Source: a bacterium (GTDB lineage Bacteria; Patescibacteriota; Microgenomatia; Daviesbacterales; UBA10151). From it: DNA of 13,893 bases. The DNA lies in assembly GCA_021786105.1 (NCBI GenBank), contig JAJYNW010000025.1:1-13893 (forward strand). Reading direction: 5' to 3'. Made by a program: the position numbers and the translations under genes. A model generated the notes under the pieces. The model saw nothing but the letters and a program-made list of their open reading frames with translations. It was not told the DNA's origin and did no database searches. The first letter of the stretch is position 1. Every line of letters begins with the position of its first letter. Below, one piece after another: positions 424-11,561 of the stretch.

Positions 424-470
424 CTATCTGAGTGAAGCTTGTACTTTTAATTCTTTCAATTTCCACATAA
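424..470 (-). pseudogene. orphan duplicate 3' end of the 500..805 gene (MWKLKELKVQASLR*)
   Basis: 468-445 encodes MWKLKELK, identical in protein to 577-554 of the neighbouring gene but with synonymous codon differences; ends at TAG 426-424. Confidence 0.75.
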
Positions 471-521
471 GGACCTTCTCGCTCGCAGTATGAGATATTT
501 TACTGCTCGCTTCGAAGAACC
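471..521 (-). repeat. imperfect palindromic element with tandem GA mismatches
   Basis: Minus strand GGTTCTTCGAAGCGAGCAGTA-aaatatctca-TACTGCGAGCGAGAAGGTCC pairs as GCAGTA/TACTGC, GA/GA, GC/GC, GAA/GA, CTTC/GAAG, GG/CC. It contains the stop codon of the 500..805 gene. Confidence 0.65.
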
Positions 522-805
522 TTGCCTCCCGCCTTCGGCGGGACGTAAACACTCTTCAGTTCTTTGAGCTTCCACATAAATACACGAGCCTTAGACTTAG
601 CGGAGGTGTAGCCTTTGGTAAAATTTAAGGCTTCTTCTAAAATATGGCGGTCAATGTTTTTGGCCAGTTTGATATAAAGCGAATAATGTTTGGTATCCTG
701 CAGGCTTTCTGCCAAGAAAACTCCGTACATTTGGAATTCTTTTGAAATGTTTCTAGGTCGGTCTTTAAACTTAACTTCCGCAATGGCTTTGGCGATGGAT
801 TTCAT
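500..805 (-). CDS. small basic hypothetical protein (101 aa); C-terminal tail derived from palindromic elements
   Basis: ATG overlaps the TGA of the upstream gene (ATGA at 805-802), consistent with translational coupling. The synonymous conservation in the duplicated 3' end supports real coding. Confidence 0.85.
   Translation of the reverse strand: MKSIAKAIAEVKFKDRPRNISKEFQMYGVFLAESLQDTKHYSLYIKLAKNIDRHILEEALNFTKGYTSAKSKARVFMWKLKELKSVYVPPKAGGKVLRSEQ
527..543. repeat. mini-hairpin TCCCGCC-TTC-GGCGGGA, translated in frame (VPPKAG)
   Basis: Perfect 7-bp GC-rich stem in AT-rich context; on the minus strand the loop is c-GAA-g (GNA triloop). Confidence 0.75.
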
Positions 806-2862
806 GGTTTAGCCGGAGCAGTTGCTTCTTTTAGCTGGGTTAGCGCTTCCAGGTAATCCGGCTTTAATTTAACAGCTTCCTGCAGGGCTTGAATCGCCTC
901 GTCTTTTTTGTTAACGGTATCCAGTATCAGGGCTTTGTTGTAATAAAGCTTGGGGTCGGTAGGAGCCAGTTTTATGGATTCATTCAAAACCTGCAGAGTC
1001 TTATCCGTATAGTTTTTGTCAATTACAGCAAGCTCAAAATAGGTTCGGATGGCAGTCCGCCAAAATGAAACATTTTTAGGATCACTTTTTAAAACTTCTT
1101 CGGTGTCGGCAATAGCTTCGTCTTTTAAGTCGGCAGATAAAGTAGCATCAGTATCTTTTAAGCTGGCTGCGGCTTGGGCTGCTACAAAACCAAGTTCTGA
1201 TTTATAAAATGGTTCACCGTTATTGAGTTCCGAGGCTGATTTGAGGGCGTTATATGCCCGGCCGGCATTGCCTATTTCACTTGCCCTTTCGCCTTGGGCA
1301 AAAAGCGTATCAGCATACCAGAGTTGAAAAATGGCATATATGAAGTATAAAGTAAAGAAAATGGTAATACCTTTGGCGGCTTTGGTATAAAAGGGGCGAT
1401 GGTAAATCAGGCGAAAGAGGCGGGAGGCAGGGTGTAAAGCGGAAGGTAATTTAAAAGGTTTGGTTGATTCTGTGGTGATAAAAGCCAGAGCCGGAAAAAC
1501 ATAGAAAAAGACGGCAATGATCACCACGGAAAAAAGAAAGAAATTAGAAATCAGGTAAGCGATATAGGCGGCAAGTAAGCAGGCGATAAATATTATGTGG
1601 GAAGTGTTATGTGTTTTTTGTCTTATACTTAATACCAAATACTTAATGCAAAATACTATAAAGGCTCCGATTACCAGCATATATGTCCCAAAACCCACTA
1701 TTCCGGTGGTGGCCAAGTAATTTAGGTACTCATTGTGGGCTTTGTTATATAAGAAGTCCCATTCGGAAGTTAAATTATGTTCGGCTGGACGGTATTGATA
1801 ATAAGAGTAAGCAAAAGTTTCCAATCCGGAGCCTAAAATTGGGTAATGTTTGAAAATATCCCAAGCTCCTTTCCACACAATCAGCCTGATCTGGCCAGAT
1901 TCGGAGCCGCCATTTTCCAGCTGGGTACCGGTGGGCGCTGGGGCGGCAGTAGGAATGTTTATTCCCGGTCTGGCCGGAGCAGCAAATTTAGAGATTAACC
2001 GGAAACTGGTTAAAGCTGAGCCAAAAAGCAGGTTAATGATGAGAAAGGATACGATAGTGGCAAGTAGCAATTTAACACTGTCATTCTGGGGAGGAGCAGA
2101 GCGACGACTCCAGAATCGATTCTGGACAAGCCAGAATGACATAAATACTGCTACCATCCCTCCAATCAATCCCACTGTCGGGCCGCGGGAATAGGTAAAG
2201 GTGAAGGCCAAGTAGTAAGTAGTAAGTAGTAAGTAGTAAGTATACTGGGTTGATCTTTTCGTCGCGGTTAGGAAGAAATAAAGTGTTGGGAAAATCAGCA
2301 TGGCTAAATAGGCAGCCAGCCAGTTCGGCTGGCCTAAAGTGGCAAAAACCCGGTCCTGGACTACCTGGATCCAGCAGGAAGCGTTAAATTCCCCCCTTAA
2401 AATTATACAAGAGGGGGAAACTCCAAAATGTTCGGAAATTCCCCACAAAGAAATAATAAAACCACTGGCCAGCCCAAATTTGAGGGCTGATTTAACTTTG
2501 GCAAAGTCCATATTGGAAACAAAAGCCCAAAATAATAATAGGTAGGAAATTATGGAAAGCAGGCCGCCGTTGGAACGGGAATAATAGCCCCAAATGGAAG
2601 TATGCGGGTCGATGGAAAAAATAGTGGATAGGATATTTGCTCCCAAAAACAGTAGTAAGGGAATATCAAGCGGAGTCCTTCTAAAGATTAAAGTTTTTTC
2701 AGAAATCATCTTTAACACCCAAGTCCCGACGATAAGCACTGTAAAGCCGTAAACTAAGATCATTTTGTTATATTCAAACAGCTCAAAATTTGAGGAGGTC
2801 CAAAAAAGCGGGGTTAAAAAGAAAAGCAGGTAAAAGGAATAAGGAATGATCCTGGTTAGCAT
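802..2862 (-). CDS. O-antigen ligase / oligosaccharyltransferase-like (Wzy_C) polytopic membrane protein with C-terminal TPR repeats
   Basis: Many hydrophobic segments. Motifs RVFATLGQPNWLAAYL, FTYSRG, RLIVWKGA..HYPILGSGLETF and KAHNEYL are typical of the O-antigen ligase family. TPR-like end (APTDPKLYYNKALIL...EAIQALQEAVKLKPDY). ATG2862 preferred; TTG2868 is possible. Confidence 0.88.
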   Translation of the reverse strand: MLTRIIPYSFYLLFFLTPLFWTSSNFELFEYNKMILVYGFTVLIVGTWVLKMISEKTLIFRRTPLDIPLLLFLGANILSTIFSIDPHTSIWGYYSRSNGGLLSIISYLLLFWAFVSNMDFAKVKSALKFGLASGFIISLWGISEHFGVSPSCIILRGEFNASCWIQVVQDRVFATLGQPNWLAAYLAMLIFPTLYFFLTATKRSTQYTYYLLLTTYYLAFTFTYSRGPTVGLIGGMVAVFMSFWLVQNRFWSRRSAPPQNDSVKLLLATIVSFLIINLLFGSALTSFRLISKFAAPARPGINIPTAAPAPTGTQLENGGSESGQIRLIVWKGAWDIFKHYPILGSGLETFAYSYYQYRPAEHNLTSEWDFLYNKAHNEYLNYLATTGIVGFGTYMLVIGAFIVFCIKYLVLSIRQKTHNTSHIIFIACLLAAYIAYLISNFFLFSVVIIAVFFYVFPALAFITTESTKPFKLPSALHPASRLFRLIYHRPFYTKAAKGITIFFTLYFIYAIFQLWYADTLFAQGERASEIGNAGRAYNALKSASELNNGEPFYKSELGFVAAQAAASLKDTDATLSADLKDEAIADTEEVLKSDPKNVSFWRTAIRTYFELAVIDKNYTDKTLQVLNESIKLAPTDPKLYYNKALILDTVNKKDEAIQALQEAVKLKPDYLEALTQLKEATAPAKP
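2079..2141. repeat. 63-bp REP-like inverted dimer, in frame within the ligase gene
   Basis: Perfect 11-bp terminal inverted repeats TGTCATTCTGG (2079-2089) / CCAGAATGACA (2131-2141) and a central 18-bp perfect palindrome TCCAGAATCGATTCTGGA (2109-2126). The length is a multiple of 3. Confidence 0.85.
2210..2242. repeat. heptanucleotide tandem repeat (AAGTAGT)x4.7 within a CDS
   Basis: Four perfect units plus AAGTA; encodes YYLLLTTYYL on the minus strand. Confidence 0.9.
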
Positions 2863-2873
2863 GGTCAAAAACT

Positions 2874-2902
2874 ATCCTAACAGAGATGGAGTGCTTGAGC
2901 AA
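2874..2902 (-). promoter_or_regulatory. sigma70-type promoter of the ligase operon
   Basis: Minus strand TTGCTC (2902-2897), 17 nt, TAGGAT (2879-2874), with an extended -10 TG. ATG follows 11 nt later. Confidence 0.55.
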
Positions 2903-2927
2903 GCGTTTGTGTAGTTGGTAAGAAACT

Positions 2928-2965
2928 GTTCACATTAATATTACGGCCGTATGTTTAATGTGAAC
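2928..2965. repeat. 38-bp near-perfect palindrome
   Basis: GTTCACATTAA-tat-TACGGCCGTA-tgt-TTAATGTGAAC; 32 of 38 positions are symmetric. Confidence 0.85.
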
Positions 2966-2974
2966 TATTTTGAC

Positions 2975-2995
2975 AAAAAACCAACGATCGTTGGT
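2975..2995 (-). terminator. probable intrinsic terminator of the 3007..3699 gene
   Basis: Minus strand ACCAAC-GATC-GTTGGT followed by TTTTT, starting 11 nt after the stop codon. Confidence 0.55.
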
Positions 2996-3006
2996 AAACG
3001 AGATAT

Positions 3007-3699
3007 CTATTCAATTGGGAAACGCGGTGCTACAGTTTTTTCTAAAACTTTAGTAAATAGAGTTTTTGGGATCGGGTATGAAACTGTGGCTGCATATACA
3101 TCCTGGATTTCTTTGAGTGCTAGGATATGTGACCAGTAAGAGAATCTTCTTGGGTACCATTGATCTCCCCAGGCACCATAAAAAAGAGTACAAAATTCCG
3201 CATTTATCCTAAACCAAGTTTTATCATCATTTTGCGGTAAGCTTTGTTCTTCTTCGCCGTTCTCTAGGTAAACTTGGGTTATATTCGCTAGATTTAGCGG
3301 CCATTGTAATTGGTCAAATCGTAGCGATGGAAAAGGAGGTAAAGTCACATTGTTATATCCAAAATCAGAATAGCTAGGACCAACCTGTAGACTAACGGAT
3401 TCTCCTGCATTTTGTGAAAGATTGGCTACTGCTATCGGGTTTCCAGTTTCCATTGGCCTATATTGGTGCGGTTTTCGAGAAATAGCGTCGATAAGTTTGC
3501 AAGCTTCTTTTAGGAATGTATCAGCTGATAGAGCGGTTTCCCAGGTCATTGAAAAGGAATCAGAGAAGTTTAAATTTATCGACATCAACGCTTTATCTGC
3601 AGTTTTAACTGTATAAATAGGAGCATAATGGAAAGCAGGTTTATCCGTTCTAACAAGAAAATAACCATTACCTAAATGTTCAGGCCGTCCAATTTGCAT
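3007..3699 (-). CDS. hypothetical protein (230 aa, accessory ORFan)
   Basis: Long open frame. Start moved to ATG3699 (MQIGRPE) because the 3759 start overlaps the ATPase and a promoter lies at 3712-3740. No family recognised. Confidence 0.7.
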   Translation of the reverse strand: MQIGRPEHLGNGYFLVRTDKPAFHYAPIYTVKTADKALMSINLNFSDSFSMTWETALSADTFLKEACKLIDAISRKPHQYRPMETGNPIAVANLSQNAGESVSLQVGPSYSDFGYNNVTLPPFPSLRFDQLQWPLNLANITQVYLENGEEEQSLPQNDDKTWFRINAEFCTLFYGAWGDQWYPRRFSYWSHILALKEIQDVYAATVSYPIPKTLFTKVLEKTVAPRFPIE

Positions 3700-3711
3700 A
3701 TTATGGGCGGG

Positions 3712-3740
3712 ATTATACTGAATAGGCAGTTTAGAATCAA
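3712..3740 (-). promoter_or_regulatory. sigma70-type promoter overlapping the ATPase stop codon
   Basis: Minus strand TTGATT (3740-3735), 17 nt, TATAAT (3717-3712); ATG 12 nt downstream. Confidence 0.7.
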
Positions 3741-5527
3741 ATACTAGCCCGGAGGGCATTTATGATTACTGCTACGTCAATTATTTCCTGAAGCCCGGCT
3801 CCAAAAATGGGAGGAATGTAACCAAAGCCAGCAAAAATCATGCCTAAAATGCTTAACCCAATGCCAAACAAAATGCTTTGGGTGGCAATTTTGATGGTTT
3901 TCCTGGCAATTTGTAAAGAAGTTAACACCAAAGAAAAATCTCCGCCCAAAAATACCACATCAGCCGCTTCCGAGGCAGCCGTTTGTTCTTCGTTGGAAAA
4001 AACTAAGCCCACATTGGCCAAAGCTAAAGCCGGTGCATCATTAATGCCGTCCCCAATCATGGCCACAGTTTTGCCGGAATTTTGCAAGTTTTTTACCCCA
4101 TTTAATTTATCCTGCGGTGACATTTGGGCAGTCAGCTCAATTTGTAAATTCAGCTGGTGGGCAACTCTTTCCGCTGCTGCCTGTCTGTCGCCGGTAAATA
4201 TTTTCAAATTTAAGCCCATTCTTTGCAGTTTTTGGAAGGAAGTTTTGGAGTCCAGCTTTAATTCGTCTTCAAACTTAAAAACGGCGAGCCTTCTTCCGGC
4301 GGAGGTCAACGCAATGGTCATGCCGATGTTGTCTTTCATTTTGGCCAGGGTAAATTTTTGTTTGTCGATGGTTCCGGAAATGCCGTGGCCGATAACTTCC
4401 TGGATCTCGGTTGCATATAAAACCGGAGCATTATTATCCCGGGCCTTGACGACGATGGCTTTGGCCAGAGGATGAAGGGAATTTCTTTCTAAAGATTCCG
4501 CAATACCCAGGATTTTTTGTTCATTAAATTGCCTGGTCAAGATTTCTATATGGGTTAATCTGGGTTGACCTAAGGTAATGGTGCCGGTTTTGTCAAAAAT
4601 CACCGTATCCACCTTAGCCAAAGTTTCCAAACTGGCCAGCTTTTTAACAATCACCCGTTTTTGGGCGGCTGAGGAAACCCCGCCCAACAGAGCAATCGGG
4701 GCGGCAATAATCAAAGGACAAGGAGTGGCAATGGCCAACACTGACAGCACCCGGGTTAGATCAAAATTTGAGGAAAAATAGGCAAAGGCGGCAATTACCA
4801 AAGTTACCAAGGTAAAAAAAACGCTGTACCTGTCAGCCATTCTGACAAAGGGTGATTGTTCTTTTTCTGCTTTTTTAACCAGCTCAATAATTTTGTCGTA
4901 AGTAGAATTGCCTTCGGTTTTGGTAACTGCTATGACCATGGGAGAGCCGATATTGACCGTGCCGGATCTTAAAACATCCCCTTTAATTTTGTCCAGGAAA
5001 TACGGCTCGCCGGTCAGACTGGATTCATCGGTTTGGCCGGCGGGCGAAATTAGCGTTCCATCCAAAGGGATAACCTCACCCTTCCTGATAAAAATCTGCT
5101 GGCCGATTTTGATATCTTTAAGCTTAGCTTTGTTGGTAGTTTTGCCTTTTTCCCATCTCAAAACTTCGTCAGGAATCCTTTCAATTAGTTTGGTTAAGGA
5201 CTCTTTGGCTTGGGTTACAGCATAGCTTTCCAAAGTCCTGCCGGAGGCAATCATCAAAGCCAAAATAGCTGCCACCAAAAAATGCCCGGTATATAAAGAA
5301 ACTAAGATGGCTAAAATGGCAATATAGTCCAAAGCAAAACGCTTTTCCCAAAGTTTTTTAAAGGTGTCAAAAAACAGCTGATAAGACCCTAAAATAGTGG
5401 TTAAAATGGCAATTACGTCAGCCGGCAGGGTAAGGTTTGCGAATTTGAGGATTAGGTAGATGATAATGCCGATCAGACAGATCAGCGGAATCCGAAAAGT
5501 CTCTGAAAACAATATCTTAATTTCCAT
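3737..5527 (-). CDS. heavy-metal-translocating P1B-type ATPase (P1B-5-like motifs)
   Basis: TGEP, DKTGT, HP, TGD and GDGINDAPALA motifs; membrane motifs TPCP and QEIID; no N-terminal CxxC metal-binding domain. Confidence 0.93.
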   Translation of the reverse strand: MEIKILFSETFRIPLICLIGIIIYLILKFANLTLPADVIAILTTILGSYQLFFDTFKKLWEKRFALDYIAILAILVSLYTGHFLVAAILALMIASGRTLESYAVTQAKESLTKLIERIPDEVLRWEKGKTTNKAKLKDIKIGQQIFIRKGEVIPLDGTLISPAGQTDESSLTGEPYFLDKIKGDVLRSGTVNIGSPMVIAVTKTEGNSTYDKIIELVKKAEKEQSPFVRMADRYSVFFTLVTLVIAAFAYFSSNFDLTRVLSVLAIATPCPLIIAAPIALLGGVSSAAQKRVIVKKLASLETLAKVDTVIFDKTGTITLGQPRLTHIEILTRQFNEQKILGIAESLERNSLHPLAKAIVVKARDNNAPVLYATEIQEVIGHGISGTIDKQKFTLAKMKDNIGMTIALTSAGRRLAVFKFEDELKLDSKTSFQKLQRMGLNLKIFTGDRQAAAERVAHQLNLQIELTAQMSPQDKLNGVKNLQNSGKTVAMIGDGINDAPALALANVGLVFSNEEQTAASEAADVVFLGGDFSLVLTSLQIARKTIKIATQSILFGIGLSILGMIFAGFGYIPPIFGAGLQEIIDVAVIINALRASI

Positions 5528-5562
5528 GATTTTTCCTTTTGTTCTAGACTTCTTTTTTTATT

Positions 5563-5605
5563 TCTGGAACAAGTCCAGAGATTCTTCGCTTCACTCAGAA
5601 TGACA
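5563..5605. repeat. composite REP-like element in the ATPase upstream region
   Basis: TCTGGA-ACAAG-TCCAGA hairpin (5563-5579) abutting GATTCTTCGCTTCACTCAGAATGACA. The latter reads ATTCT-GA-GT-GAA-GC-GA-AGAAT on the minus strand and has the same GAATGACA end as 2134-2141 and 6816-6823. Confidence 0.8.
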
Positions 5606-5638
5606 GACGCTTCTCATAGAAAATTAAGATACGAATTT

Positions 5639-5668
5639 ATATTAGCAAAAAAGGTTGTGGTAGATCAA
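5639..5668 (-). promoter_or_regulatory. candidate promoter for the P1B ATPase
   Basis: Minus strand TTGATC (5668-5663), 18 nt, TAATAT (5644-5639), with an extended -10 TG. Confidence 0.4.
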
Positions 5669-5675
5669 TCTCTTA

Positions 5676-5684
5676 TGTTAAACT
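5676..5684 (+). promoter_or_regulatory. extended -10 promoter predicting a leaderless mreB mRNA
   Basis: TG-T-TAAACT then 6 nt (CCCCTC, no Shine-Dalgarno) before ATG5691; TTGTGG lies 18 nt upstream of the -10. Confidence 0.6.
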
Positions 5685-5690
5685 CCCCTC

Positions 5691-6752
5691 ATGTTTGGGA
5701 AAATATGGGAACTGTTATCGTGCGATATTGGTATAGATTTGGGTACTGTTAATACTCTCGTTTTAGTTAAGGGCAAAGGGATTGCCATCCGTGAACCGAC
5801 CGTTGTGGCCATCCACAAAAAAACCCGTCAAATTTTAGCAATTGGTACTGAAGCCAAAAGAATGTTGGGTCGGACTCCGGCAGTCATCGAGGCGGTCAGG
5901 CCTTTGCGGAATGGGGTAATTTCCGATTTTGACACCACTGAAGCCATGCTGAAGTTTTTTATCCAAAAAGTTCACGAAAACCCAGGAAGAGGAATTTTTT
6001 CTTTGCCCAAAATTCCCCGACCCCGGGTGGTAGTGGGTATTCCTTCCGGGGTGACCGAAGTGGAAAGAAGGGCAGTGCAGGATGCCTGTTTGTCGGCGGG
6101 TGCGCGGGAAGCCTATTTAATCGAAGAGCCGATGGCAGCCTCAATTGGGGCCAAACTGCCGATTGAGGATCCGGAGGGAGTAATGATTGTGGATATTGGC
6201 GGAGGGACCACTGAGATTGCGGTGATTTCTTTGGGCGGCATGGTGGTTAATAAATCTTTAAGGGTGGCAGGAGATGAATTGGATCAGGAAATTATTAATT
6301 ATATGCGGATGCGGTATGGAGTGTTAATTGGAGAAAGAACGGCTGAGGACGTTAAAATTGAAATCGGCTCGGCGTATCCTGTCGGCAAAGATGACATGGT
6401 GACAGTAATTAGAGGTAGGGATTTGGCAACCGGTTTGCCAAAATCCTTAAAAATTACCACGGCTGAGATCAGGGAGGCGCTTGCTCCGACAGTTTCGCAA
6501 ATGATTACCGCCATCCAGGAAATTTTAGAAGAAACTCCTCCAGAGCTCCTGACCGATATAGTGGAAAGAGGGATATACTTGGCCGGCGGCGGGGCACTCC
6601 TGCGGGGTTTGGATAAAAGGATTGCCGAAGAAACCAAGCTGCCCGTTTATGTGGCAGATGATCCGCTGACTACCGTGGTTAGGGGTTGCGGAGAAGTATT
6701 AAATAACTTGAATTTGTTGTCGAAGGTCAAAGTGACAGGAGGCCTTCGTTAG
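5691..6752 (+). CDS. mreB: rod shape-determining protein MreB (actin-like ATPase)
   Basis: DIGIDLGT.NT, VRPLRNGVISDF, PSGVTEVERRA, IEEPMAA.IG, VDIGGGTTEIAVISLGG and GGGALLRGLD motifs. Confidence 0.97.
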   Translation: MFGKIWELLSCDIGIDLGTVNTLVLVKGKGIAIREPTVVAIHKKTRQILAIGTEAKRMLGRTPAVIEAVRPLRNGVISDFDTTEAMLKFFIQKVHENPGRGIFSLPKIPRPRVVVGIPSGVTEVERRAVQDACLSAGAREAYLIEEPMAASIGAKLPIEDPEGVMIVDIGGGTTEIAVISLGGMVVNKSLRVAGDELDQEIINYMRMRYGVLIGERTAEDVKIEIGSAYPVGKDDMVTVIRGRDLATGLPKSLKITTAEIREALAPTVSQMITAIQEILEETPPELLTDIVERGIYLAGGGALLRGLDKRIAEETKLPVYVADDPLTTVVRGCGEVLNNLNLLSKVKVTGGLR

Positions 6753-6764
6753 AAGATCGACTAA

Positions 6765-6823
6765 CATCCCGTACTTGATAGAGGGTGTGTCCTTCGTACA
6801 ACGGGATCAAGTCCGGAATGACA
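6765..6823. repeat. REP-like inverted dimer with nested insert
   Basis: CATCCCGTACTTGAT (6765-6779) and ATCAAGTCCGGAATG (6806-6820) are inverted repeats (13/15); the element ends in GAATGACA. Confidence 0.75.
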
Positions 6824-6833
6824 AAGAAACAAA

Positions 6834-7463
6834 ATGAAAAAAGCAGTGCTTTTTGATATTGACGGAACTCTGCTGGATGCCTGGAACTTTATTTTTGATG
6901 CGGTTAAACATACTGTCAGTGAGCATGGACAACCCTATCCTTCTGTAAAACTGATCAGGAAAGCTTTGGGAAAACCGCTGCTGGAATTTTATACAATCGC
7001 TTTGCCGGCTGCTGATCCAGAAATGCTGGCTAAAACCCACCACCAGTTTCAGCAACAAAACTTTTCCCTGATTAAGTTATTCCCCAAAGCAAAAAGTACG
7101 TTGAAGCGCATAAAAGATAAAGGTTTTCTGCTGGCAGCTGTCAGCAATAGAAGCCGGGGTAGTCTAATCCGGTCATTGAAACTGACTGGTATTTTTAAAT
7201 ATTTTGATGTCATAGTTTCTGCTGAAGATGTAGTCAATCCCAAGCCTCACCAGGAGCATTTGCTAACGGCGTTAAAACATTTAAAAGTCAAACCTATGAA
7301 TGCATTTATCATTGGTGATACAGACAAAGATATTTTAGCTGGTAAAAATGCCGGAGTAAAAACTATTGGGGTAACTTATGGCTTTTTGGGGGAAGAGATT
7401 AAAAAATATGAGCCTGATTTTGTGATTGATGATATTGAAGGAATTTTGGATATTGTAAAATAA
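6834..7463 (+). CDS. HAD-superfamily hydrolase (phosphoglycolate phosphatase / PpaX-like)
   Basis: Motif I FDIDGTLLD, motif II VSN, motif III KPH, motif IV IGDTDKDILAG. Confidence 0.92.
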   Translation: MKKAVLFDIDGTLLDAWNFIFDAVKHTVSEHGQPYPSVKLIRKALGKPLLEFYTIALPAADPEMLAKTHHQFQQQNFSLIKLFPKAKSTLKRIKDKGFLLAAVSNRSRGSLIRSLKLTGIFKYFDVIVSAEDVVNPKPHQEHLLTALKHLKVKPMNAFIIGDTDKDILAGKNAGVKTIGVTYGFLGEEIKKYEPDFVIDDIEGILDIVK

Positions 7464-7478
7464 TAATTGTCTTCCGAA

Positions 7479-7829
7479 ATGAACACTAATAATCAAACAC
7501 TGGTAAAAAGTTTAGAGAGAGATATTACCAACCTGCTTTTGTATAAACTGGAACATCTAGAAATAACTCCGGAAAGGGCGGCCCTGATTGCTCAGTTTAC
7601 GCTGGTTCATTTGCCGGAAAACTTGACTGATGAGCAGCTAAAACAGATTTTACCGGCGCTGGATGATGAATTCATTGAATTGGCCGGCATTATCCATCAA
7701 TATATGAACAAGTTTGAGGAAGAAACAAAACAAAAAATTGCCCAGGATGCACAAGCTTTAATAAAAAGTGGACATTTTGATAAGGCAAGTACTATGATGA
7801 GAGAGTATTTCAAAAGGAGGTTACCGTAA
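7479..7829 (+). CDS. hypothetical helical protein (116 aa)
   Basis: Open frame filling the gap in a same-strand gene run; ATG7479 preferred over TTG7467. Confidence 0.75.
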   Translation: MNTNNQTLVKSLERDITNLLLYKLEHLEITPERAALIAQFTLVHLPENLTDEQLKQILPALDDEFIELAGIIHQYMNKFEEETKQKIAQDAQALIKSGHFDKASTMMREYFKRRLP

Positions 7830-7832
7830 TTT

Positions 7833-8651
7833 ATGTCAGAAGTCAGACAGCCTGGCCCGGAAGAAATCCAAAAAACTAATCTGCGAGAACGTTTGACTAC
7901 AAAAGCAAAAGAGCTTCCGGCAGGAGTCAGGGCAGCAGTGGCCCGAGCCAAGACATTGTCGCCGCGACAGGCTTTATTGAATTTAGCCGGTTTAACTCCT
8001 GAAGCAAAGCAAAGACAGGCTTTGGCAGAACAAGAAAGACAGCAACAAGCAGAAGCTAGAGCATTAATAGTAGGAATTGACCGTCTTTTCCCAGAAAATG
8101 CAAAAAGCTATGGTTCTCGCGGACTCTACACAAAAGAAGAATGGAAAGAGGAGCGAAGGCTTAGTAAAATGGGTAAGTTTCCCTGGGAAAAAAGCGAACC
8201 TTGGCATCAAAGAGTAAAAGCTAGCGCCTCAATCAGGCTCTCTGATACCGATACAGTCTATTTTAACGAAGATAAGCCAAGTTACCTTAAGGTTAAGGGA
8301 GATAGAAAAATTGAATTGCAGAGAGATTATGTAGATAGAGATGGAATTAAGGCAAGAGAGATGATAGAGCTAACTGAATTGCCAAATGGTCATGTACGAC
8401 TCGAGTCTGGCAGTAGGCAGAAAATGACTGGTAGAGAAGCAATTTACAGTCGGGCCCTGGCTCGAGAAAAGGGTAAATTGCCTGTTGAGGTGACCGGTGG
8501 TATGTATGCAGGTACAAGACCAGCTTTCGAAGGAAGGACTTTATATAATCCAGCTGCTGTTTTAGCAATTGGAAAAGAAATTGTCGGGGTGGCAGCTAAA
8601 GGCAGAGAAGCGCAAGCTGCTCAATTTCAGCAGGCCTCAGGGAGTAAGTAA
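7833..8651 (+). CDS. hypothetical protein (272 aa, charged, N-terminal coiled-coil)
   Basis: Long ORF 3 nt after the upstream stop; AAGGAGGT at 7814-7821; no family recognised. Confidence 0.75.
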   Translation: MSEVRQPGPEEIQKTNLRERLTTKAKELPAGVRAAVARAKTLSPRQALLNLAGLTPEAKQRQALAEQERQQQAEARALIVGIDRLFPENAKSYGSRGLYTKEEWKEERRLSKMGKFPWEKSEPWHQRVKASASIRLSDTDTVYFNEDKPSYLKVKGDRKIELQRDYVDRDGIKAREMIELTELPNGHVRLESGSRQKMTGREAIYSRALAREKGKLPVEVTGGMYAGTRPAFEGRTLYNPAAVLAIGKEIVGVAAKGREAQAAQFQQASGSK

Positions 8652-8655
8652 GGAG

Positions 8656-8895
8656 TTACTTTATTCTGTGGGCTATTGAAGAAGATTGCAAAAAGATATC
8701 GTGTTGTATTTTTGCGGGAAATGTTCTAGCTGCCTTTTTGAAGAATTGTGAGGCATCCAAAATCTCTAGAAGTACAGCTTCCCTTTTAGGGGAAAAATGC
8801 ACGATTAAGTCACCCGATTGTTCTGCGTAATCAATGGGCTTTTTGTTTAGCTCAATCATTAAAACATCATCTTCTTTGTTGTATTTTAATTTCAT
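8656..8895 (-). CDS. DUF2283 family protein, putative antitoxin
   Basis: MKLKYNKEDDVLMIEL...DLIVHF...VLLEILDAS fits the DUF2283 pattern (MKIxYDxExDxLYI...GIEILxAS); 6 nt downstream of its partner gene. Confidence 0.8.
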   Translation of the reverse strand: MKLKYNKEDDVLMIELNKKPIDYAEQSGDLIVHFSPKREAVLLEILDASQFFKKAARTFPAKIQHDIFLQSSSIAHRIK

Positions 8896-8901
8896 TTTAT
8901 T

Positions 8902-9159
8902 TTAATAATACCTACCTTTTTCTGCCGGATAAAAAGTGATTATTTTAATTATACCATGCTCAGTTTTGTAGACAACCCGGATAATGTGCTTATTATCAAA
9001 GTTTTTAGAGGCAATAATTTTTGGATAATCAGATTCTTGATCGAGATGGTCTGGATTTCTTATCACAACCATAATATCCGCTTTATTTAAATGGAAATTG
9101 TGCTTTTTAAGTAATACAAATTTATCTTTTAAAGCATGCTTACTAAAGACTATCTTCAT
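8902..9159 (-). CDS. DUF4258 family / RelE-like putative toxin
   Basis: MKIVFSKHA...NPD...IRVVY...IKIITFYP; small basic protein; DUF4258 and DUF2283 are known to co-occur as predicted TA pairs. Confidence 0.78.
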   Translation of the reverse strand: MKIVFSKHALKDKFVLLKKHNFHLNKADIMVVIRNPDHLDQESDYPKIIASKNFDNKHIIRVVYKTEHGIIKIITFYPAEKGRYY

Positions 9160-9164
9160 AGAAT

Positions 9165-9178
9165 CAGTATACAGTATA
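9165..9178 (-). promoter_or_regulatory. -10 box of the TA operon, tandemly duplicated
   Basis: TATACT (9171-9166) 6 nt before ATG9159 (leaderless spacing); plus strand (CAGTATA)x2. No good -35 box. Confidence 0.5.
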
Positions 9179-9198
9179 TAATTAGTAAATTTAGATCG

Positions 9199-9212
9199 TT
9201 ATAGTCTATAAT
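9199..9212 (+). promoter_or_regulatory. consensus -10 box within a small palindrome
   Basis: TATAAT at 9207-9212, overlapped by TTATAG-T-CTATAA (9199-9211); an ATG follows 6 nt later. Confidence 0.55.
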
Positions 9213-9218
9213 AGCATT

Positions 9219-9254
9219 ATGGATCAGTTGTTAAATGAAGGGAATTCGGCATGA
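9219..9254 (+). CDS. candidate leaderless uORF MDQLLNEGNSA*
   Basis: ATG 6 nt after TATAAT; its TGA overlaps the next gene's ATG (ATGA 9251-9254). Confidence 0.4.
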   Translation: MDQLLNEGNSA

Positions 9255-10462
9255 ATACAGAAAATCCTAATCGTGATGTTCAAAGAGAGATGGTCTATCA
9301 ACAGATCCAAGATCCGATTTCTCGAGAGTTGCTAAGAAGTAGCATTCCTGGCGATAAAGTGCATGAATATAGACTAGCAAGTCCAGTAGGTCCACAATTT
9401 GCCCAAAATCTGGTTGAGCTATTAAGAAGAGAAAGGGGAAATGCAATTAGAGGTATTCTGGGAGTAGCTGCGACAGCCCAAAATCCTGCTCAGCTATCTA
9501 ATGCCCTAGGTACCTTCGGGTTACTAGCACATCAGGGTTTGCTAAGAGATGAAGCAAATCAGTTATTTGATCAAGCTCAAGATGAATTTTTACGACAACC
9601 GTCTGCAACCCCTTTTGCAACTGATGGTGCACGGGCACTGCAAGCCCAAATGATTGGAATGTGGAATGAAGTACATAATAGACAAGGAAGGTGGGATACG
9701 CCAGAAAGTAAGGAAGGGGATGTTATAAATTTAATTCATCATCTGCAGGACGAAATCTGCAAGGGACTCAAAAACAATTCAGGACGAGGTAAATATTGGG
9801 CTGAAGCTTATCTTTTGACAGTATTAGATCCCGGTACCCCCTTTGGATTAAGAAAAATATTGCTTTCAAAAACAATTAAACTCGATTTTGGTATCCAACA
9901 TTACGTCGTTTATTCATATTCCTACGGAAATCCCTACGGAGACGATCCCCGATTTAATCAAGGCGCCAGTATCTGGGGGTCAGCAAGTGCAGCATGGGTT
10001 TATCCAGAGATATTTGGATCCAATAAAGGCGGCGATGTTAAAGATTGGGAGATTGCAGGTCTTCGAAAAACAATCGCTTCCTTACAGCAACAACTTGAAC
10101 GTACTCCTCGGTCTGATGCTGGTATTGAACAAGAGCGGGCTCGGTTAAGAGAGTTGATGTTGAGTATGCAAAGGATGGTTACTGAAGGTGAGGCGAAATT
10201 GAGGATTTATAAAGAGATTGGTCAGCATCCTCTGGATGCTTTAGGTTTAGGTTATGATGTATGGAGAAGAACTGATATAGAAAGTAGAAAGAAGCTTGTT
10301 CTCGGTAATTATAGAGAGAGAGCTAAAAGGTATCATTACCAAATTCCCTCGTCAGATCCACGGTTTGATCCACTTTTACAAGAACTTGCTAATAAAGAAT
10401 TCGGTCGTTTAACCAAAGCTTATGACTATCTAAATCAAAATATTACTAAGGAAGAATTTTAA
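9251..10462 (+). CDS. hypothetical protein with coiled-coil and C-terminal degenerate J (DnaJ-like) domain
   Basis: HPLDALGL...NYRERAKRYHYQ...ANKEFGRLTKAYDYL follows the J-domain helix pattern (xxYxxLGL...AYRxLAxxYHPD...AxxxFxxIxxAYxxL) but has HYQ in place of HPD. Confidence 0.75.
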   Translation: MNTENPNRDVQREMVYQQIQDPISRELLRSSIPGDKVHEYRLASPVGPQFAQNLVELLRRERGNAIRGILGVAATAQNPAQLSNALGTFGLLAHQGLLRDEANQLFDQAQDEFLRQPSATPFATDGARALQAQMIGMWNEVHNRQGRWDTPESKEGDVINLIHHLQDEICKGLKNNSGRGKYWAEAYLLTVLDPGTPFGLRKILLSKTIKLDFGIQHYVVYSYSYGNPYGDDPRFNQGASIWGSASAAWVYPEIFGSNKGGDVKDWEIAGLRKTIASLQQQLERTPRSDAGIEQERARLRELMLSMQRMVTEGEAKLRIYKEIGQHPLDALGLGYDVWRRTDIESRKKLVLGNYRERAKRYHYQIPSSDPRFDPLLQELANKEFGRLTKAYDYLNQNITKEEF

Positions 10463-10463
10463 T

Positions 10464-11561
10464 ATGTTACAGGTACCTTTTTATGATCCCAATAAAAGTT
10501 ATGATGATAACTATGATCAAGGTCCATTTGGGGCATTTGCTGACGGAAAAGTCTTCGAGCAAGCAGGGGAGCCCTTCGACTACGCTCAGGGTGAACCAAG
10601 GTTCAATTTTTTGGGACAAAAAGTTTATCTGCCTTTTGGCATTCCGGCCGGACCTTTGGTAAATGCCAAGTTTTGCAAAGCTGCTTTTGAAAAAGGTTTT
10701 GATATCTGTGTTTATAAAACGGTGAGGACTGCTTACTTTCCCTGTCATCCTTTCCCTAATATTTTGGCGGTAAAACTCGAAGGTGATTTAACTTTAGAGA
10801 AAGCCCAAGAGAAACTTATTGCAGACAATAATTACTCTGAGCCTTTATCAATAACCAACTCCTTTGGCGTGCCATCCAAAGATCCAAGTGTTTGGCAGGA
10901 AGATGTTAAACAGGCCATTTCCTTTGCCGGTAAAGGCCAGATTTTGGTATTGAGCTTTATGGGTACGGTCCGGGAGAATCAAACGCCGGAAGAATTTGTT
11001 GCTGACTATGCTTTGGCTGCCAAATTATCCAAGGAGACCGGGGCCAAAATTTTGGAAACCAATTTATCCTGCCCAAATATCGGTAATGAGGGTTTGGTTT
11101 GTTACAACCTAGATATGACGGAAAAAGTTTTGGCCGCCATCAGGCAGGAAATCGGCGAGACACCGCTAATTGTAAAAGTTGGTTACTATCAAAAAGATGA
11201 AGATTTAAAAAGATTGGTGGAAATTGTGGGTAAATATGCTCAAGCTATTGCTGCCATCAATACCATCCAGGCCGAAATTGCGGACAAAAATGGTAATCAG
11301 GCTTTGCCGGGCAAAAACCGGGCCAGGTCCGGGGTATGCGGGGCCGGAATTGAATGGGCGGGACTGGATATGGTCAAAAGACTGGTGAAAATCAGAGATG
11401 AAGCCGGGGCTAGTGTAAAAATTATTGGGGTGGGCGGGGTAATGAAAGTTGAAGATTATTTTGAATATATGAAAGCCGAAGCAGATGCAGTGATGAGTGC
11501 CACCGGAGCCATGTGGAATCCAAGCTTGGCCCAGGAAATTAAACATCTTGCTATAAAATAA
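10464..11561 (+). CDS. dihydroorotate dehydrogenase-like FMN oxidoreductase
   Basis: PFGIPAGPL, YKT, NSFG, ETNLSCPN (class 1 catalytic Cys loop), IVK, INT, SG and IIGVGGV motifs. Confidence 0.85.
   Translation: MLQVPFYDPNKSYDDNYDQGPFGAFADGKVFEQAGEPFDYAQGEPRFNFLGQKVYLPFGIPAGPLVNAKFCKAAFEKGFDICVYKTVRTAYFPCHPFPNILAVKLEGDLTLEKAQEKLIADNNYSEPLSITNSFGVPSKDPSVWQEDVKQAISFAGKGQILVLSFMGTVRENQTPEEFVADYALAAKLSKETGAKILETNLSCPNIGNEGLVCYNLDMTEKVLAAIRQEIGETPLIVKVGYYQKDEDLKRLVEIVGKYAQAIAAINTIQAEIADKNGNQALPGKNRARSGVCGAGIEWAGLDMVKRLVKIRDEAGASVKIIGVGGVMKVEDYFEYMKAEADAVMSATGAMWNPSLAQEIKHLAIK
10572..10591. repeat. mini-palindrome CCCTTCGACTACGCTCAGGG in frame in the DHODH gene (PFDYAQG)
   Basis: Minus strand CCCT-GA-GC-GTA-GT-CGA-AGGG hairpin (GNA loop, GA mismatches); flanked by a repeated Gly-Glu-Pro 24 nt apart. 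Confidence 0.75.

What the first reader, a model, noticed from the sequence alone, without database searches (positions are those of the whole stretch)
424..10598. A family of tiny palindromic elements spread through the locus and translated inside proteins
Seen: at least six GC-rich hairpin elements (471-521, 527-543, 2079-2141, 5563-5605, 6765-6823, 10572-10591) built from shared parts. These parts are GNA triloops (GAA, GTA), tandem GA/GA mismatches that pair on one strand only, CAAG-type loops, and a common GAATGACA end in three copies. Three lie wholly in coding frame and one supplies a stop codon. Established: REP elements, and Rickettsia palindromic elements that insert in frame in proteins; c-GNA-g loops and sheared G.A pairs stabilise single-stranded DNA. 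Inference: a non-autonomous, ssDNA-structure-recognised mobile repeat system that adds peptides to proteins in a probable CPR genome. No mobiliser is encoded in this window.
Basis: partly seen in the sequence, partly recalled or inferred. Interest (0 to 1): 0.8.

Follow-up and report, generated by a model that had tools for sequence, protein, structure and literature searches.

The report
Ssn-type hairpin repeats inside genes
The small hairpins are copies of a known kind of bacterial repeat (CGTC-tagged REPs, the binding sites of small GIY-YIG single-strand DNA nucleases called Ssn), here found in a tiny, probably CPR genome, where many copies sit in frame inside essential genes.

Summary
Three of the six hairpins (2079-2141, 5563-5605, 6761-6823) belong to a real genome-wide family: 76 units against 4-12 in shuffles. 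A unit reads head YGTC, a stem starting AT, a loop, then C. Two types occur. One has a perfect 8-bp stem. The other has a 5-bp stem, a tandem GA/GA bracket and a mini-hairpin, often with a GNA loop. Most units form inverted pairs with heads outward. This anatomy matches the CGTC-tagged REPs of Di Nocera 2013 (which include Rickettsia RPE-4 and RPE-6) and the Ssn-related motifs of Chenal 2025. None of the five Y1 transposase genes has a unit nearby. About a third of loci lie in frame in housekeeping genes, and same-genus orthologues show empty sites and different elements at the same spots. 10572-10597 is a decayed 21-nt remnant. 471-543 is a separate genome-specific insert. This is a known kind, newly seen in this lineage, with a hairpin variant that the published search motif misses.

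The parts
2079..2141 (-). Complete inverted pair of hairpin units with heads outward (TGTC...GACA), 63 nt. Left unit is 2079-2116: stem ATTCTGG/CCAGAAT with a 20-nt loop. Right unit is 2119-2141: the same stem with loop ACAAG. It is read in frame as SFWLVQNRFWSRRSAPPQND in a loop of the Wzy_C/TPR protein (ORF 802-2868, minus strand).
   Evidence: Folding gives -12.8 and -12.5 kcal/mol, z -3.0 and -3.5. Among the window's locus and 11 same-genus loci, the window and two others carry the same element, two carry different type-A pairs at the same loop, and the rest show no element-type peptide. DNA was read for 9 of the 12. The same element subtype sits in UvrA and RecF of relative G201. There is no second copy in this genome.
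5580..5605 (-). Single type-A unit. On the minus strand it reads TGTC-ATTCT-GA-GTGAAGC-GA-AGAAT-C. It lies between the divergent P-type ATPase gene (3737-5527, minus) and mreB (5691-6752, plus).
   Evidence: Ten other genomic copies at 90-96% identity over 27-31 nt. Its distal mini-hairpin has only one closing pair. Nearest-neighbour folding is no better than shuffles.
5563..5579 (.). Small hairpin TCTGGA-ACAAG-TCCAGA abutting the type-A unit. Similar CTGAA-ACAAG-TTCAG hairpins precede type-A units at C17 52342 and C3 4457.
6761..6823 (.). Decayed inverted pair just after the mreB stop (6750-6752). The right unit keeps loop TCAAG, arm TCCGGAAT and head GACA (6807-6823). Its inner arm, and the left unit's head and inner arm, have mutated.
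   Evidence: A 20-nt exact match to the intact unit at C1 4693-4712. Minus-strand folding z -2.9. In the genus, three genomes have different intact pairs at this spot and one has a single unit. Six genomes with the same downstream HAD gene have no element.
10575..10595 (+). 21-nt in-frame insert (FDYAQGE) in the DHO_dh-like ORF 10464-11561. It resembles the head-proximal half of a type-A unit but has lost the AT stem and the GACA head. Probable decayed remnant.
   Evidence: Of 13 same-genus orthologues, 11 lack it, one shares it and one has a different unit-like insert at the same place. Related 18-21-nt stretches occur at C17 32249-32269 and in the unit at C3 5687-5704. No significant fold.
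424..444 (-). Probable decayed type-A unit at the older 3' end of the small conserved gene. It shares 12 nt (TCTGAGTGAAGC) with the unit at 5580-5605 and contains a TAG in the frame of the duplicated gene end.
   Evidence: Comparison by eye, with no statistical support. BLAST found no significant second copy.
471..554 (-). 84-nt insert specific to this genome, bracketed by a duplicated gene end (446-470 and 555-579, 80% identical). It holds the hairpins at 471-521 and 527-543 and supplies the last 16 codons and the TAA stop (500-502) of ORF 500-805. It is not a member of the YGTC-AT family.
   Evidence: repeat D18; the 11 orthologues shown match only up to about residue 84-90; single weak second copies at C26 28100-28129 and C17 6205-6228. 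Folding z -0.8 and -1.4.

Best explanation
The hairpins at 2079-2141, 5563-5605 and 6761-6823, and probably the remnants at 10575-10595 and 424-444, are copies of the genome's CGTC/TGTC-tagged palindromic repeats. These are the same kind as the CGTC REPs of Di Nocera 2013 and the Ssn-related motifs (NTS-like repeats) of Chenal 2025.

Anatomy. Each unit has an unpaired head YGTC, a stem whose first two pairs are A-T, a loop, and a C right after the palindrome. Units mostly come as inverted pairs with heads outward.

Partner gene. The cognate protein is a single-domain GIY-YIG nuclease of about 95 residues. Its gene sits between two inverted units, twice in this genome on other contigs. The short pairs look like internally deleted, non-autonomous relatives of that gene-bearing element.

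Mechanism. By analogy with the tested Neisseria and Wolbachia enzymes, the nuclease binds the head strand of the hairpin as single-stranded DNA and cuts a few bases 5' of the head.

Spread. The elements have entered many sites. They persist where they do little harm, in spacers between genes and, in frame, in permissive loops of proteins, where they are translated as 7-30 extra residues.

Shown here: the family, its anatomy, its link to the GIY-YIG gene, in-frame copies, and empty or differently filled orthologous sites.

Inferred: recognition as single-stranded DNA, cleavage, and nuclease-dependent movement.
For: Family size:
- 76 strict units against 4-12 in shuffles.
- Heads: TGTC 61, CGTC 9, AGTC 5, GGTC 1. 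C follows the palindrome in 40 of 40 type-A and 32 of 36 type-B units.
- 23 of 53 loci are inverted pairs with heads outward.

Match to published descriptions:
- PMC3733652 (abstract, section 15 and passages read): terminal CGTC, often TGTC; stems of 8-9 bp starting with AT; loops of 4-5 nt; tail CCA. The paper also reports intragenic copies in uvrA, polA, ligase and tRNA synthetase genes, and counts RPE-4 and RPE-6 as members.
- PMC11893778 (sections 7, 8, 10, 17 and passages read): a 94-aa single-domain GIY-YIG, the NTS-ssnA-NTS architecture, a critical C after the palindrome, and cleavage of single-stranded DNA upstream of the head.

Link to the GIY-YIG gene:
- C9 18089-18433 and C3 5238-5720 each hold a 94-95-aa GIY-YIG ORF between inverted units (Pfam E 3e-16 and 6e-18).
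- The C9 copy has the same CTCTAGATT...AATCTAGAG inner bracket as the spacers of the short pairs.
- Homologues occur in 83 of 201 genomes of the phylum, up to 5 per genome, some with internal stops.
- 16 of 29 loci have units with heads outward on both flanks. Unit density is 3.60 per kb near the gene and 0.27 per kb elsewhere in those loci.
- Of 80 named loci across phyla, 33 have both flanks and 16 have one. Many carry the ATTCCCGC...GCGGGAAT core.

In-frame copies: 24 of 53 loci fall inside crude ORFs. Of 18 tested, 14 lie inside single housekeeping proteins, plus Wzy.

Turnover within the genus:
- RecF: 14 of 18 sites empty, 4 filled with at least 3 different kinds of element.
- UvrA, Wzy, the mreB spacer and the DHO_dh-like gene behave likewise.

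No orientation bias against transcription: single units 11 sense and 9 antisense, pairs 11 and 8.
Against: - The published SRM search motif finds only 8 sites here, against 0-4 in 10 dinucleotide shuffles. It overlaps 5 of 76 units and none of the 40 type-A units.
- Type-A units have 5-bp stems, not the 8-9 bp described for CGTC REPs.
- Assignment of the GIY-YIG proteins to cd10448, and direct homology to N. meningitidis SsnA, could not be tested. No PDB relative was found by sequence, and NCBIfam gives only weak group I intron endonuclease matches.
- The third small GIY-YIG gene (C14) has no units beside it.
- 6 of 29 and 31 of 80 homologous loci showed no flanking unit under the criteria used.
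- No type-B-flanked nuclease gene was seen in this 92%-complete assembly, apart from a type-B pair nested beside the C3 gene.
- No target-site duplication or clear target was found. The only signal is a W-Y bias at positions -2 and -1.
- Different elements recurring at the same sites could reflect selection for tolerated sites rather than active insertion.
- Nearest-neighbour folding gives single type-A units no advantage over shuffles.
Confidence: 0.82

Rival explanations
1. The repeats are REP/REPIN-type elements mobilised by an HUH Y1 transposase (a RAYT or IS200/IS605 TnpA) encoded elsewhere in the genome.
For: The genome has five Y1_Tnp matches: one 143-aa IS200-like gene and four genes of about 215-230 aa. 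Inverted pairs of hairpins resemble REPINs. Di Nocera 2013 left open that CGTC REPs might use other transposases (passage read).
Against: No unit, even by the relaxed definition, lies within 400 nt of any of the five genes. The head is YGTC, not GTAG. Di Nocera 2013 found no Y1 gene flanked by CGTC units. The units flank GIY-YIG genes instead.
Confidence: 0.04
2. The hairpins act mainly at the RNA level, as terminators, mRNA stabilisers or regulators. Their spread reflects selection for that role rather than a nuclease-linked selfish element.
For: 12 loci lie between genes on the same strand, often within a few bases of the upstream stop. Di Nocera 2013 argues that many REPs are transcribed (section 15 read). 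The 6761-6823 copy follows the mreB stop.
Against: There is no strand bias against transcription. A third or more of loci lie inside coding regions, where a terminator would do harm. No T-run follows the units. The conserved head and trailing C are the positions that matter for the DNA nuclease. Published Ssn does not bind RNA (PMC11893778, section 8).
Confidence: 0.08
3. The elements are domesticated. As in Neisseria, the nuclease-repeat pair mainly modulates recombination of incoming single-stranded DNA, and the copies no longer move.
For: Chenal 2025 shows that SsnA and NTS modulate natural transformation in N. meningitidis and proposes domestication (abstract and discussion passage read). 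Many copies here are decayed (6761-6823, 10575-10595).
Against: Within one genus, different elements occupy the same sites and many sites are empty. The same subtype sits at non-homologous loci in two genomes. The nuclease gene is multi-copy with pseudogenes across the phylum. All of this fits recent movement. The two readings do not exclude each other.
Confidence: 0.2
4. The six stretches are unrelated chance hairpins in a compact genome.
For: Three of the five stretches folded do not fold better than shuffles.
Against: Longer motifs are enriched 7- to 30-fold. Units are enriched roughly 6- to 19-fold over shuffles. Distal stems covary. BLAST finds ten close copies of the 5580-5605 unit.
Confidence: 0.02

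Closest known systems
Ssn-related motifs (NTS/dRS3-like repeats) with SsnA-family GIY-YIG single-strand DNA nucleases (Chenal et al. 2025, PMC11893778)
   Same: - Head HGTC followed by AT.
- A hairpin, with a C right after the palindrome.
- A single-domain GIY-YIG gene of about 94 residues flanked by inverted repeats.
- Many dispersed copies.
- Relatives of this genome's nuclease at 49-68% identity are flanked by the ATTCCCGC...GCGGGAAT core.
   Different: - The published degenerate motif misses 71 of 76 units here.
- About half of the units use a 5-bp stem, a tandem GA/GA bracket and a mini-hairpin.
- Pairs almost always join an ATCC-type unit to an ATTC-type unit.
- The main text of that paper has no occurrence of 'Patescibacteria', 'Candidatus' or 'intragenic'. 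Its supplements could not be seen.
CGTC-tagged REP superfamily (Di Nocera, De Gregorio and Rocco 2013, PMC3733652)
   Same: - Terminal CGTC or TGTC.
- Stems of 8-9 bp beginning with AT, loops of 4-5 nt, tail CCA (type B here).
- Inverted dimers, including heterodimers.
- In-frame copies in uvrA, polA, DNA ligase and tRNA synthetase genes.
- No Y1 transposase beside them.
   Different: - That survey found them in five phyla, none of them CPR.
- It reported no dedicated enzyme.
- Type-A architecture is not among its four families.
Rickettsia palindromic elements RPE-4 and RPE-6 (equated with CGTC-4 and CGTC-1 in PMC3733652)
   Same: Small palindromic repeats inserted in frame in proteins of a reduced genome and translated as short extra peptides.
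   Different: Similarity of sequence to the Rickettsia copies was not tested here. The host lineage differs. The wider RPE-1 type elements are longer.
REPIN-RAYT systems (GTAG REPs with Y1 transposases)
   Same: Inverted pairs of hairpin repeats, a single-stranded hairpin as the likely substrate, and a small nuclease or transposase gene flanked by the repeats.
   Different: The head is YGTC, not GTAG. The partner is a GIY-YIG protein, not an HUH enzyme. Y1 genes here have no units nearby.

Membership tests
CGTC-tagged REP superfamily (Di Nocera 2013) | Unpaired terminal tetranucleotide CGTC (TGTC or CCTC allowed) at one end of the palindrome | tested here: met
   Heads among 76 strict units: TGTC 61, CGTC 9, AGTC 5, GGTC 1. 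The window copies at 2079, 2141, 5605 and 6823 have TGTC/GACA.
CGTC-tagged REP superfamily (Di Nocera 2013) | Stem of 8-9 bp whose first two pairs are A-T, with a loop of 4-5 nt | tested here: inconclusive
   Met by type B. In one search's 76-unit set, 25 units had 8-bp stems, 1 had 9 and 3 had 7, with loops such as ATTC, TTTC, ACAAG and TCAAG. Not met by the 40 type-A units, which have a 5-bp stem, a GA/GA bracket and a distal mini-hairpin. The window pair at 2079-2141 has 7-bp stems.
CGTC-tagged REP superfamily (Di Nocera 2013) | Short unpaired tail after the palindrome, consensus CCA | tested here: met
   Type-B tails: CCA 15 of 36, with C first in 32 of 36. Type-A tails: CTC 33, CTT 6, CTA 1 of 40.
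CGTC-tagged REP superfamily (Di Nocera 2013) | Multi-copy and frequently arranged as inverted dimers | tested here: met
   76 units in 53 loci, of which 23 are inverted pairs with heads outward. How this maps onto the paper's HH and TT naming was not checked.
Ssn nuclease / SRM system (Chenal 2025) | Single-domain GIY-YIG protein of about 94 residues | tested here: met
   P0001 has 94 aa and P0002 has 95 aa. Pfam GIY-YIG E 3.1e-16 and 6.4e-18, with no other domain. Tyr, Tyr and Glu lie at 7/17/64 (P0001) and 7/18/65 (P0002), close to the Y6, Y17 and E64 mutated in the paper. This agreement is by position only, not by alignment.
Ssn nuclease / SRM system (Chenal 2025) | Membership of CDD family cd10448, or of the Ssn clade | not testable with these tools
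   No CDD library and no N. meningitidis SsnA sequence were on hand. NCBIfam gave only weak matches. PDB search by sequence found nothing.
Ssn nuclease / SRM system (Chenal 2025) | Nuclease gene flanked on both sides by the hairpin repeats | tested here: met
   2 of 3 small GIY-YIG genes in this genome. 16 of 29 loci from the phylum. 33 of 80 named loci across phyla. The paper reports 42% with both flanks.
Ssn nuclease / SRM system (Chenal 2025) | Repeats fit the published degenerate SRM search motif | tested here: not met
   8 hits in the genome against 0-4 in 10 dinucleotide shuffles. They overlap 5 of 76 units, all of type B. The head HGTCWY and the trailing C do fit. The stem positions do not.
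Ssn nuclease / SRM system (Chenal 2025) | Binding and cleavage of the head strand as single-stranded DNA only | not testable with these tools
   Needs biochemistry. The tandem GA/GA bracket and GNA loops fall on the head strand. That fits strand-specific single-stranded recognition but is not a test of it.
REP/REPIN-RAYT | GTAG head and a Y1 (RAYT) gene flanked by the repeats | tested here: not met
   Heads are YGTC. 0 of 5 Y1_Tnp genes have a unit within 400 nt.
Rickettsia palindromic elements (RPE) | Palindromic repeat inserted in frame in protein genes and absent from orthologues | tested here: met
   Wzy, RecF, UvrA, and 14 of 18 further ORFs by Pfam. Similarity of sequence to Rickettsia RPEs was not tested.

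The most novel reading that the evidence does not exclude
In this lineage the short head-out pairs are active miniature transposons. They derive by internal deletion from a repeat-nuclease-repeat element and are moved in trans by the GIY-YIG single-strand nuclease. This would be a bacterial transposition system built on a GIY-YIG enzyme rather than an HUH or DDE enzyme.

It would have a hairpin variant (5-bp stem, tandem sheared G.A pairs, GNA mini-hairpin) readable on one DNA strand only. It would also prefer certain targets, which would explain why different elements land at the same points of RecF, UvrA, Wzy and the mreB spacer in sister species.
Probability: 0.3. Interest if true: 0.7.

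Novelty: new member of a known kind. Interest (0 to 1): 0.4.

Why it matters
This links a raw-sequence oddity to two published frameworks. It also extends them to a very small, probably CPR genome of 1.04 Mb.

In that genome about 70 units are present. At least 15 housekeeping proteins carry translated copies, among them UvrA, RecF, Pol I, DNA ligase, GlmS, MurB, MurT, PheT, CarB and PurL. That is a Rickettsia-like situation in an unrelated reduced lineage.

Three practical points follow:
- The published SRM search motif misses most units here, so surveys that rely on it will undercount these repeats.
- The type-A hairpins offer natural substrates for probing what Ssn enzymes read in single-stranded DNA.
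- Gene callers and protein databases will hold many odd peptides of the SEAKNL or SLRMT kind that come from these repeats.

The filled and empty sites within one genus give material to test whether the repeat-nuclease-repeat element really transposes. The 2025 paper raised that question but left it open.

Tried and rejected
- Rfam scan of the window at E up to 1: only one chance-level hit (uc_338, 21 bits against a gathering score of 120). No known RNA family covers the hairpins.
- Literature search by raw motifs: returned only primer-type noise.
- RAYT hypothesis: rejected.
- Four-helix-bundle (23S_rRNA_IVP) genes as partners: three matches in the genome, none listed near units. ORF 500-805 has no Pfam or NCBIfam match. 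Not pursued further.
- Target-site duplication: flanks of 23 pairs show no direct repeat, only a W-Y bias just outside the head. Head-to-head lengths are not multiples of three even for in-frame copies, so the true insert borders differ from the heads.
- Filled-versus-empty alignments in RecF, Wzy and the mreB spacer: exact junctions could not be fixed because the empty sites vary.
- Nearest-neighbour DNA folding to test the strand asymmetry of type-A units: both strands gave about -0.8 kcal/mol. This is uninformative, because sheared G.A pairs and GNA loop bonuses may not be modelled. The exceptional stability of the GCGAAGC mini-hairpin is my recollection and comes from no call.
- The script stopped at L048, so DNA of L048-L050 at the Wzy loop was not read. 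Only their protein alignment was seen.
- PDB sequence search for the nuclease: found nothing. No structure prediction was run.
- Supplementary files of both papers were not seen. They may list CPR genomes or type-A-like motifs, which would lower the novelty further.
- Taxonomic placement as CPR was not tested with marker genes.

Full report
**Setting.** The window is a whole 13,893-nt contig (C24) of a 1.04-Mb assembly with 26 contigs and 40% G+C, rated 92% complete. Its genes are ordinary:
- a small conserved ORF, 500-805 (minus strand);
- a Wzy_C/TPR membrane protein, 802-2868 (minus);
- a P-type ATPase, 3737-5527 (minus);
- mreB, 5691-6752;
- a HAD hydrolase;
- a DHO_dh-like protein, 10464-11561;
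- a methyltransferase.

No GIY-YIG or Y1 transposase match lies in the window.

Genome-wide, some of the proposed motifs are strongly enriched: TCGCTTCRCTC 20 against 0.6 expected, TCAGAATGACA 15 against 0.7, CGGAATGACA 12 against 1.6. GAATGAC alone is not enriched (94 against 135), and two motifs are unique.

Listing every occurrence of YRGRATGAC with its context showed an obvious family. I used a strict definition: a stem that starts AT and is followed by GAC, with either 7 or more perfect pairs, or 5 pairs plus a TC/TC bracket. It finds 76 units in 53 loci, against 4-12 in ten shuffles.

Read on the strand that carries the head, a unit is YGTC, AT, the rest of the stem, a loop, the returning stem ending AT, then C.
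- Type B (36 units) has a perfect stem, mostly 8 bp, and a 4-5-nt loop. Its tail is CCA in 15 of 36 units.
- Type A (40 units) has a 5-bp stem, then GA, a small distal hairpin, GA, and the returning stem.
- In 30 of 40 type-A units the distal part closes with at least two Watson-Crick pairs, against 7% for shuffled inner segments. These closing pairs covary (GC/GC, AC/GT, GGC/GCC, up to 8 bp).
- Loops are GAA 11, GTA 3, GCA 2 and GATTA 5.
- The base after the palindrome is C in 40 of 40 type-A and 32 of 36 type-B units.

Twenty-three loci are inverted pairs with heads outward. In 20 of them one unit is ATCC-type and the other ATTC-type.

**Which of the six belong?**
- 2079-2141 is a complete 63-nt pair.
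- 5580-5605 is a type-A unit with ten close copies elsewhere, preceded by a small hairpin at 5563-5579.
- 6761-6823 is a pair whose inner arms and left head have decayed. It keeps a 20-nt exact match to an intact unit on C1.
- 10572-10597 is a 21-nt in-frame insert. It is absent from 11 of 13 same-genus orthologues, shared by one, and replaced by another unit-like insert in one. It resembles half a type-A unit but has no head or AT stem.
- 471-521 and 527-543 are different. They lie in an 84-nt insert found only in this genome, bracketed by a duplicated gene end. The insert supplies 16 codons and the stop of ORF 500-805. They lack the head, and each has one weak second copy.

Nearest-neighbour DNA folding favours only 2078-2142 and the minus strand of 6761-6824 over shuffles.

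**What is it?** A literature search led to two papers.

Di Nocera et al. 2013 (PMC3733652; abstract, section 15 and passages read) defines CGTC-tagged REPs:
- terminal CGTC, often TGTC;
- stems of 8-9 bp that start with AT;
- loops of 4-5 nt and tails near CCA;
- mostly dimers, often heterodimers.

The paper found these repeats in five phyla and equates them with Neisseria dRS3 and Rickettsia RPE-4 and RPE-6. It reports some copies in frame in uvrA, polA, ligase and tRNA synthetase genes, and no dedicated transposase. Type B here fits that description point by point.

Chenal et al. 2025 (PMC11893778; sections 7, 8, 10, 17 and passages read) shows the following:
- Such repeats (NTS, generalised as Ssn-related motifs) flank the genes of single-domain GIY-YIG proteins of about 94 residues.
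- These enzymes bind the hairpin only as single-stranded DNA and cut a few bases upstream of the head.
- The C after the palindrome is critical for binding.
- RNA and double-stranded DNA are not substrates.

**Testing that link here.** The genome has three small GIY-YIG genes. Two lie exactly between inverted units.
- At C9 18089-18433, a 94-aa ORF sits between two type-A units. The inner junctions, CTCTAGATT...AATCTAGAG, match the spacers of the short pairs.
- At C3 5238-5720, a 95-aa ORF sits between two ATTGC-type units, with a type-B pair nested beside it.

Homologues of the C3 protein occur in 83 of 201 sampled genomes of the phylum, up to five per genome, several with internal stops. In the best locus from each of 29 other genomes, 16 have units with heads outward on both flanks, 7 on one and 6 on none. 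Unit density is 3.60 per kb within 150 nt of the gene against 0.27 per kb elsewhere in the same loci (a looser listing is). The stems differ between genomes but are often identical on the two flanks of one gene.

Among 80 named loci from many phyla, 33 have both flanks, 16 have one and 31 have none at a stem of 6 or more pairs. The phyla include CPR groups, Chloroflexi, Cyanobacteria, Proteobacteria including Rickettsiales, Bacteroidetes and Planctomycetes, and the proteins are 45-78% identical to the query. Many flanks carry the ATTCCCGC...GCGGGAAT core of dRS3/NTS.

By contrast, none of the five Y1 transposase genes has even a relaxed unit within 400 nt.

**Points against simple membership.**
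- The published degenerate SRM motif finds only 8 sites here (0-4 in shuffles). It covers 5 of 76 units and no type-A unit.
- The cd10448 assignment could not be tested.
- One GIY-YIG gene (C14) has no units beside it.

**Translated copies and turnover.** A crude ORF set places 24 of 53 loci inside ORFs. Pfam on 18 of these shows that 14 lie within or between the domains of one recognisable protein: GlmS, MurT, PheT, UvrA, FemAB, MurB, YchF, peptidase M1, DNA ligase, CarB, RecF, Pol I, PurL and a SpoU methylase. Four are ambiguous. With Wzy that makes 15.

Orthologues in the same genus give empty and differently filled sites.
- Wzy loop. The window and two relatives share the ATTCTGG-type pair. 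Two relatives carry different type-A pairs, read in other frames. The remaining loci show no element-type peptide. DNA was read for 9 of 12 loci.
- RecF. 14 of 18 sites are empty. This genome has a type-A pair, two relatives have an ATTCTGG-type pair, and one has a decayed unit.
- UvrA. This genome and G201 carry different pairs at the same point, two relatives have decayed single units, and a second hot spot lies about 90 residues downstream.
- mreB-HAD spacer. There are three different intact pairs, one single unit and this genome's decayed pair. Six genomes have the two genes abutting with nothing between.

The element subtype found in the window's Wzy gene is single-copy in this genome. 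It sits in UvrA and RecF of relative G201.

Orientation is unbiased relative to transcription, which argues against an RNA-level role as the main function. No target duplication was found, only a W-Y bias just outside the head.

**Mechanism.**
- Shown: family, anatomy, nuclease-gene association, in-frame copies, presence/absence turnover.
- Inferred from published biochemistry on homologues: the GIY-YIG protein binds the head strand as a single-stranded hairpin and nicks 5' of the head.
- Inferred from the shared inner bracket and from the turnover: the short pairs are non-autonomous derivatives that move, or once moved, with the help of that enzyme.

How a single-strand nick leads to insertion is unknown, here and in the literature. 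A domesticated role in handling incoming single-stranded DNA, as in Neisseria, is compatible and untested.

**Verdict.** The system is a known kind (2013 and 2025 papers).

What is new is modest:
- its presence and density in a very small, probably CPR genome;
- a type-A hairpin variant that the published search motif misses;
- evidence within one genus for repeated colonisation of the same protein loops.

Interest is 0.4.

Noticed in passing
window 446-579: The last 25 nt or so of ORF 500-805(-) are duplicated (446-470 and 555-579, 80% identical) around an 84-nt insert that gives the protein a new 16-residue tail and stop. The orthologue in relative G206 (L092) has a separate insert of about 100 nt with the same kind of duplicated gene end. 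The mechanism is unexplained.
   Followed up: partly
window 8656-8895 (-) and 8902-9159 (-): Two adjacent small ORFs, one DUF2283 (E 1.1e-8) and one with a weak PBECR3 RelE/barnase-like nuclease match (E 5.7e-5, below the cut-off). They may be a toxin-antitoxin-like pair.
   Followed up: no
window 2211-2244: An 8-nt unit (AGTAGTAA) repeated four times inside the Wzy ORF. It encodes YLLLTTYY, which is conserved in orthologues, so the repeat may simply follow from the peptide.
   Followed up: partly
G000 C23:7582-8013, C20:58066-58716, C12:11952-12641, C26:8911-9555, C14:12228-12899: One 143-aa IS200-like TnpA and four Y1_Tnp-like genes of about 215-230 aa in a 1-Mb genome. None lies near the hairpin units. 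Their own ends and role were not examined.
   Followed up: partly
loci L101, L103-L105, L108, L109, L111 (UvrA orthologues, near query residue 234): A second point in UvrA where several same-genus genomes carry extra peptides of the repeat type (for example VIASEAKQS...SAPRNDK).
   Followed up: no
G000 C14:30962-31297 (-): A third small GIY-YIG gene (111 aa) with no hairpin units beside it. It matches UvrC-type and intron-endonuclease models more strongly than the other two genes do, so it may belong to a different subfamily.
   Followed up: partly
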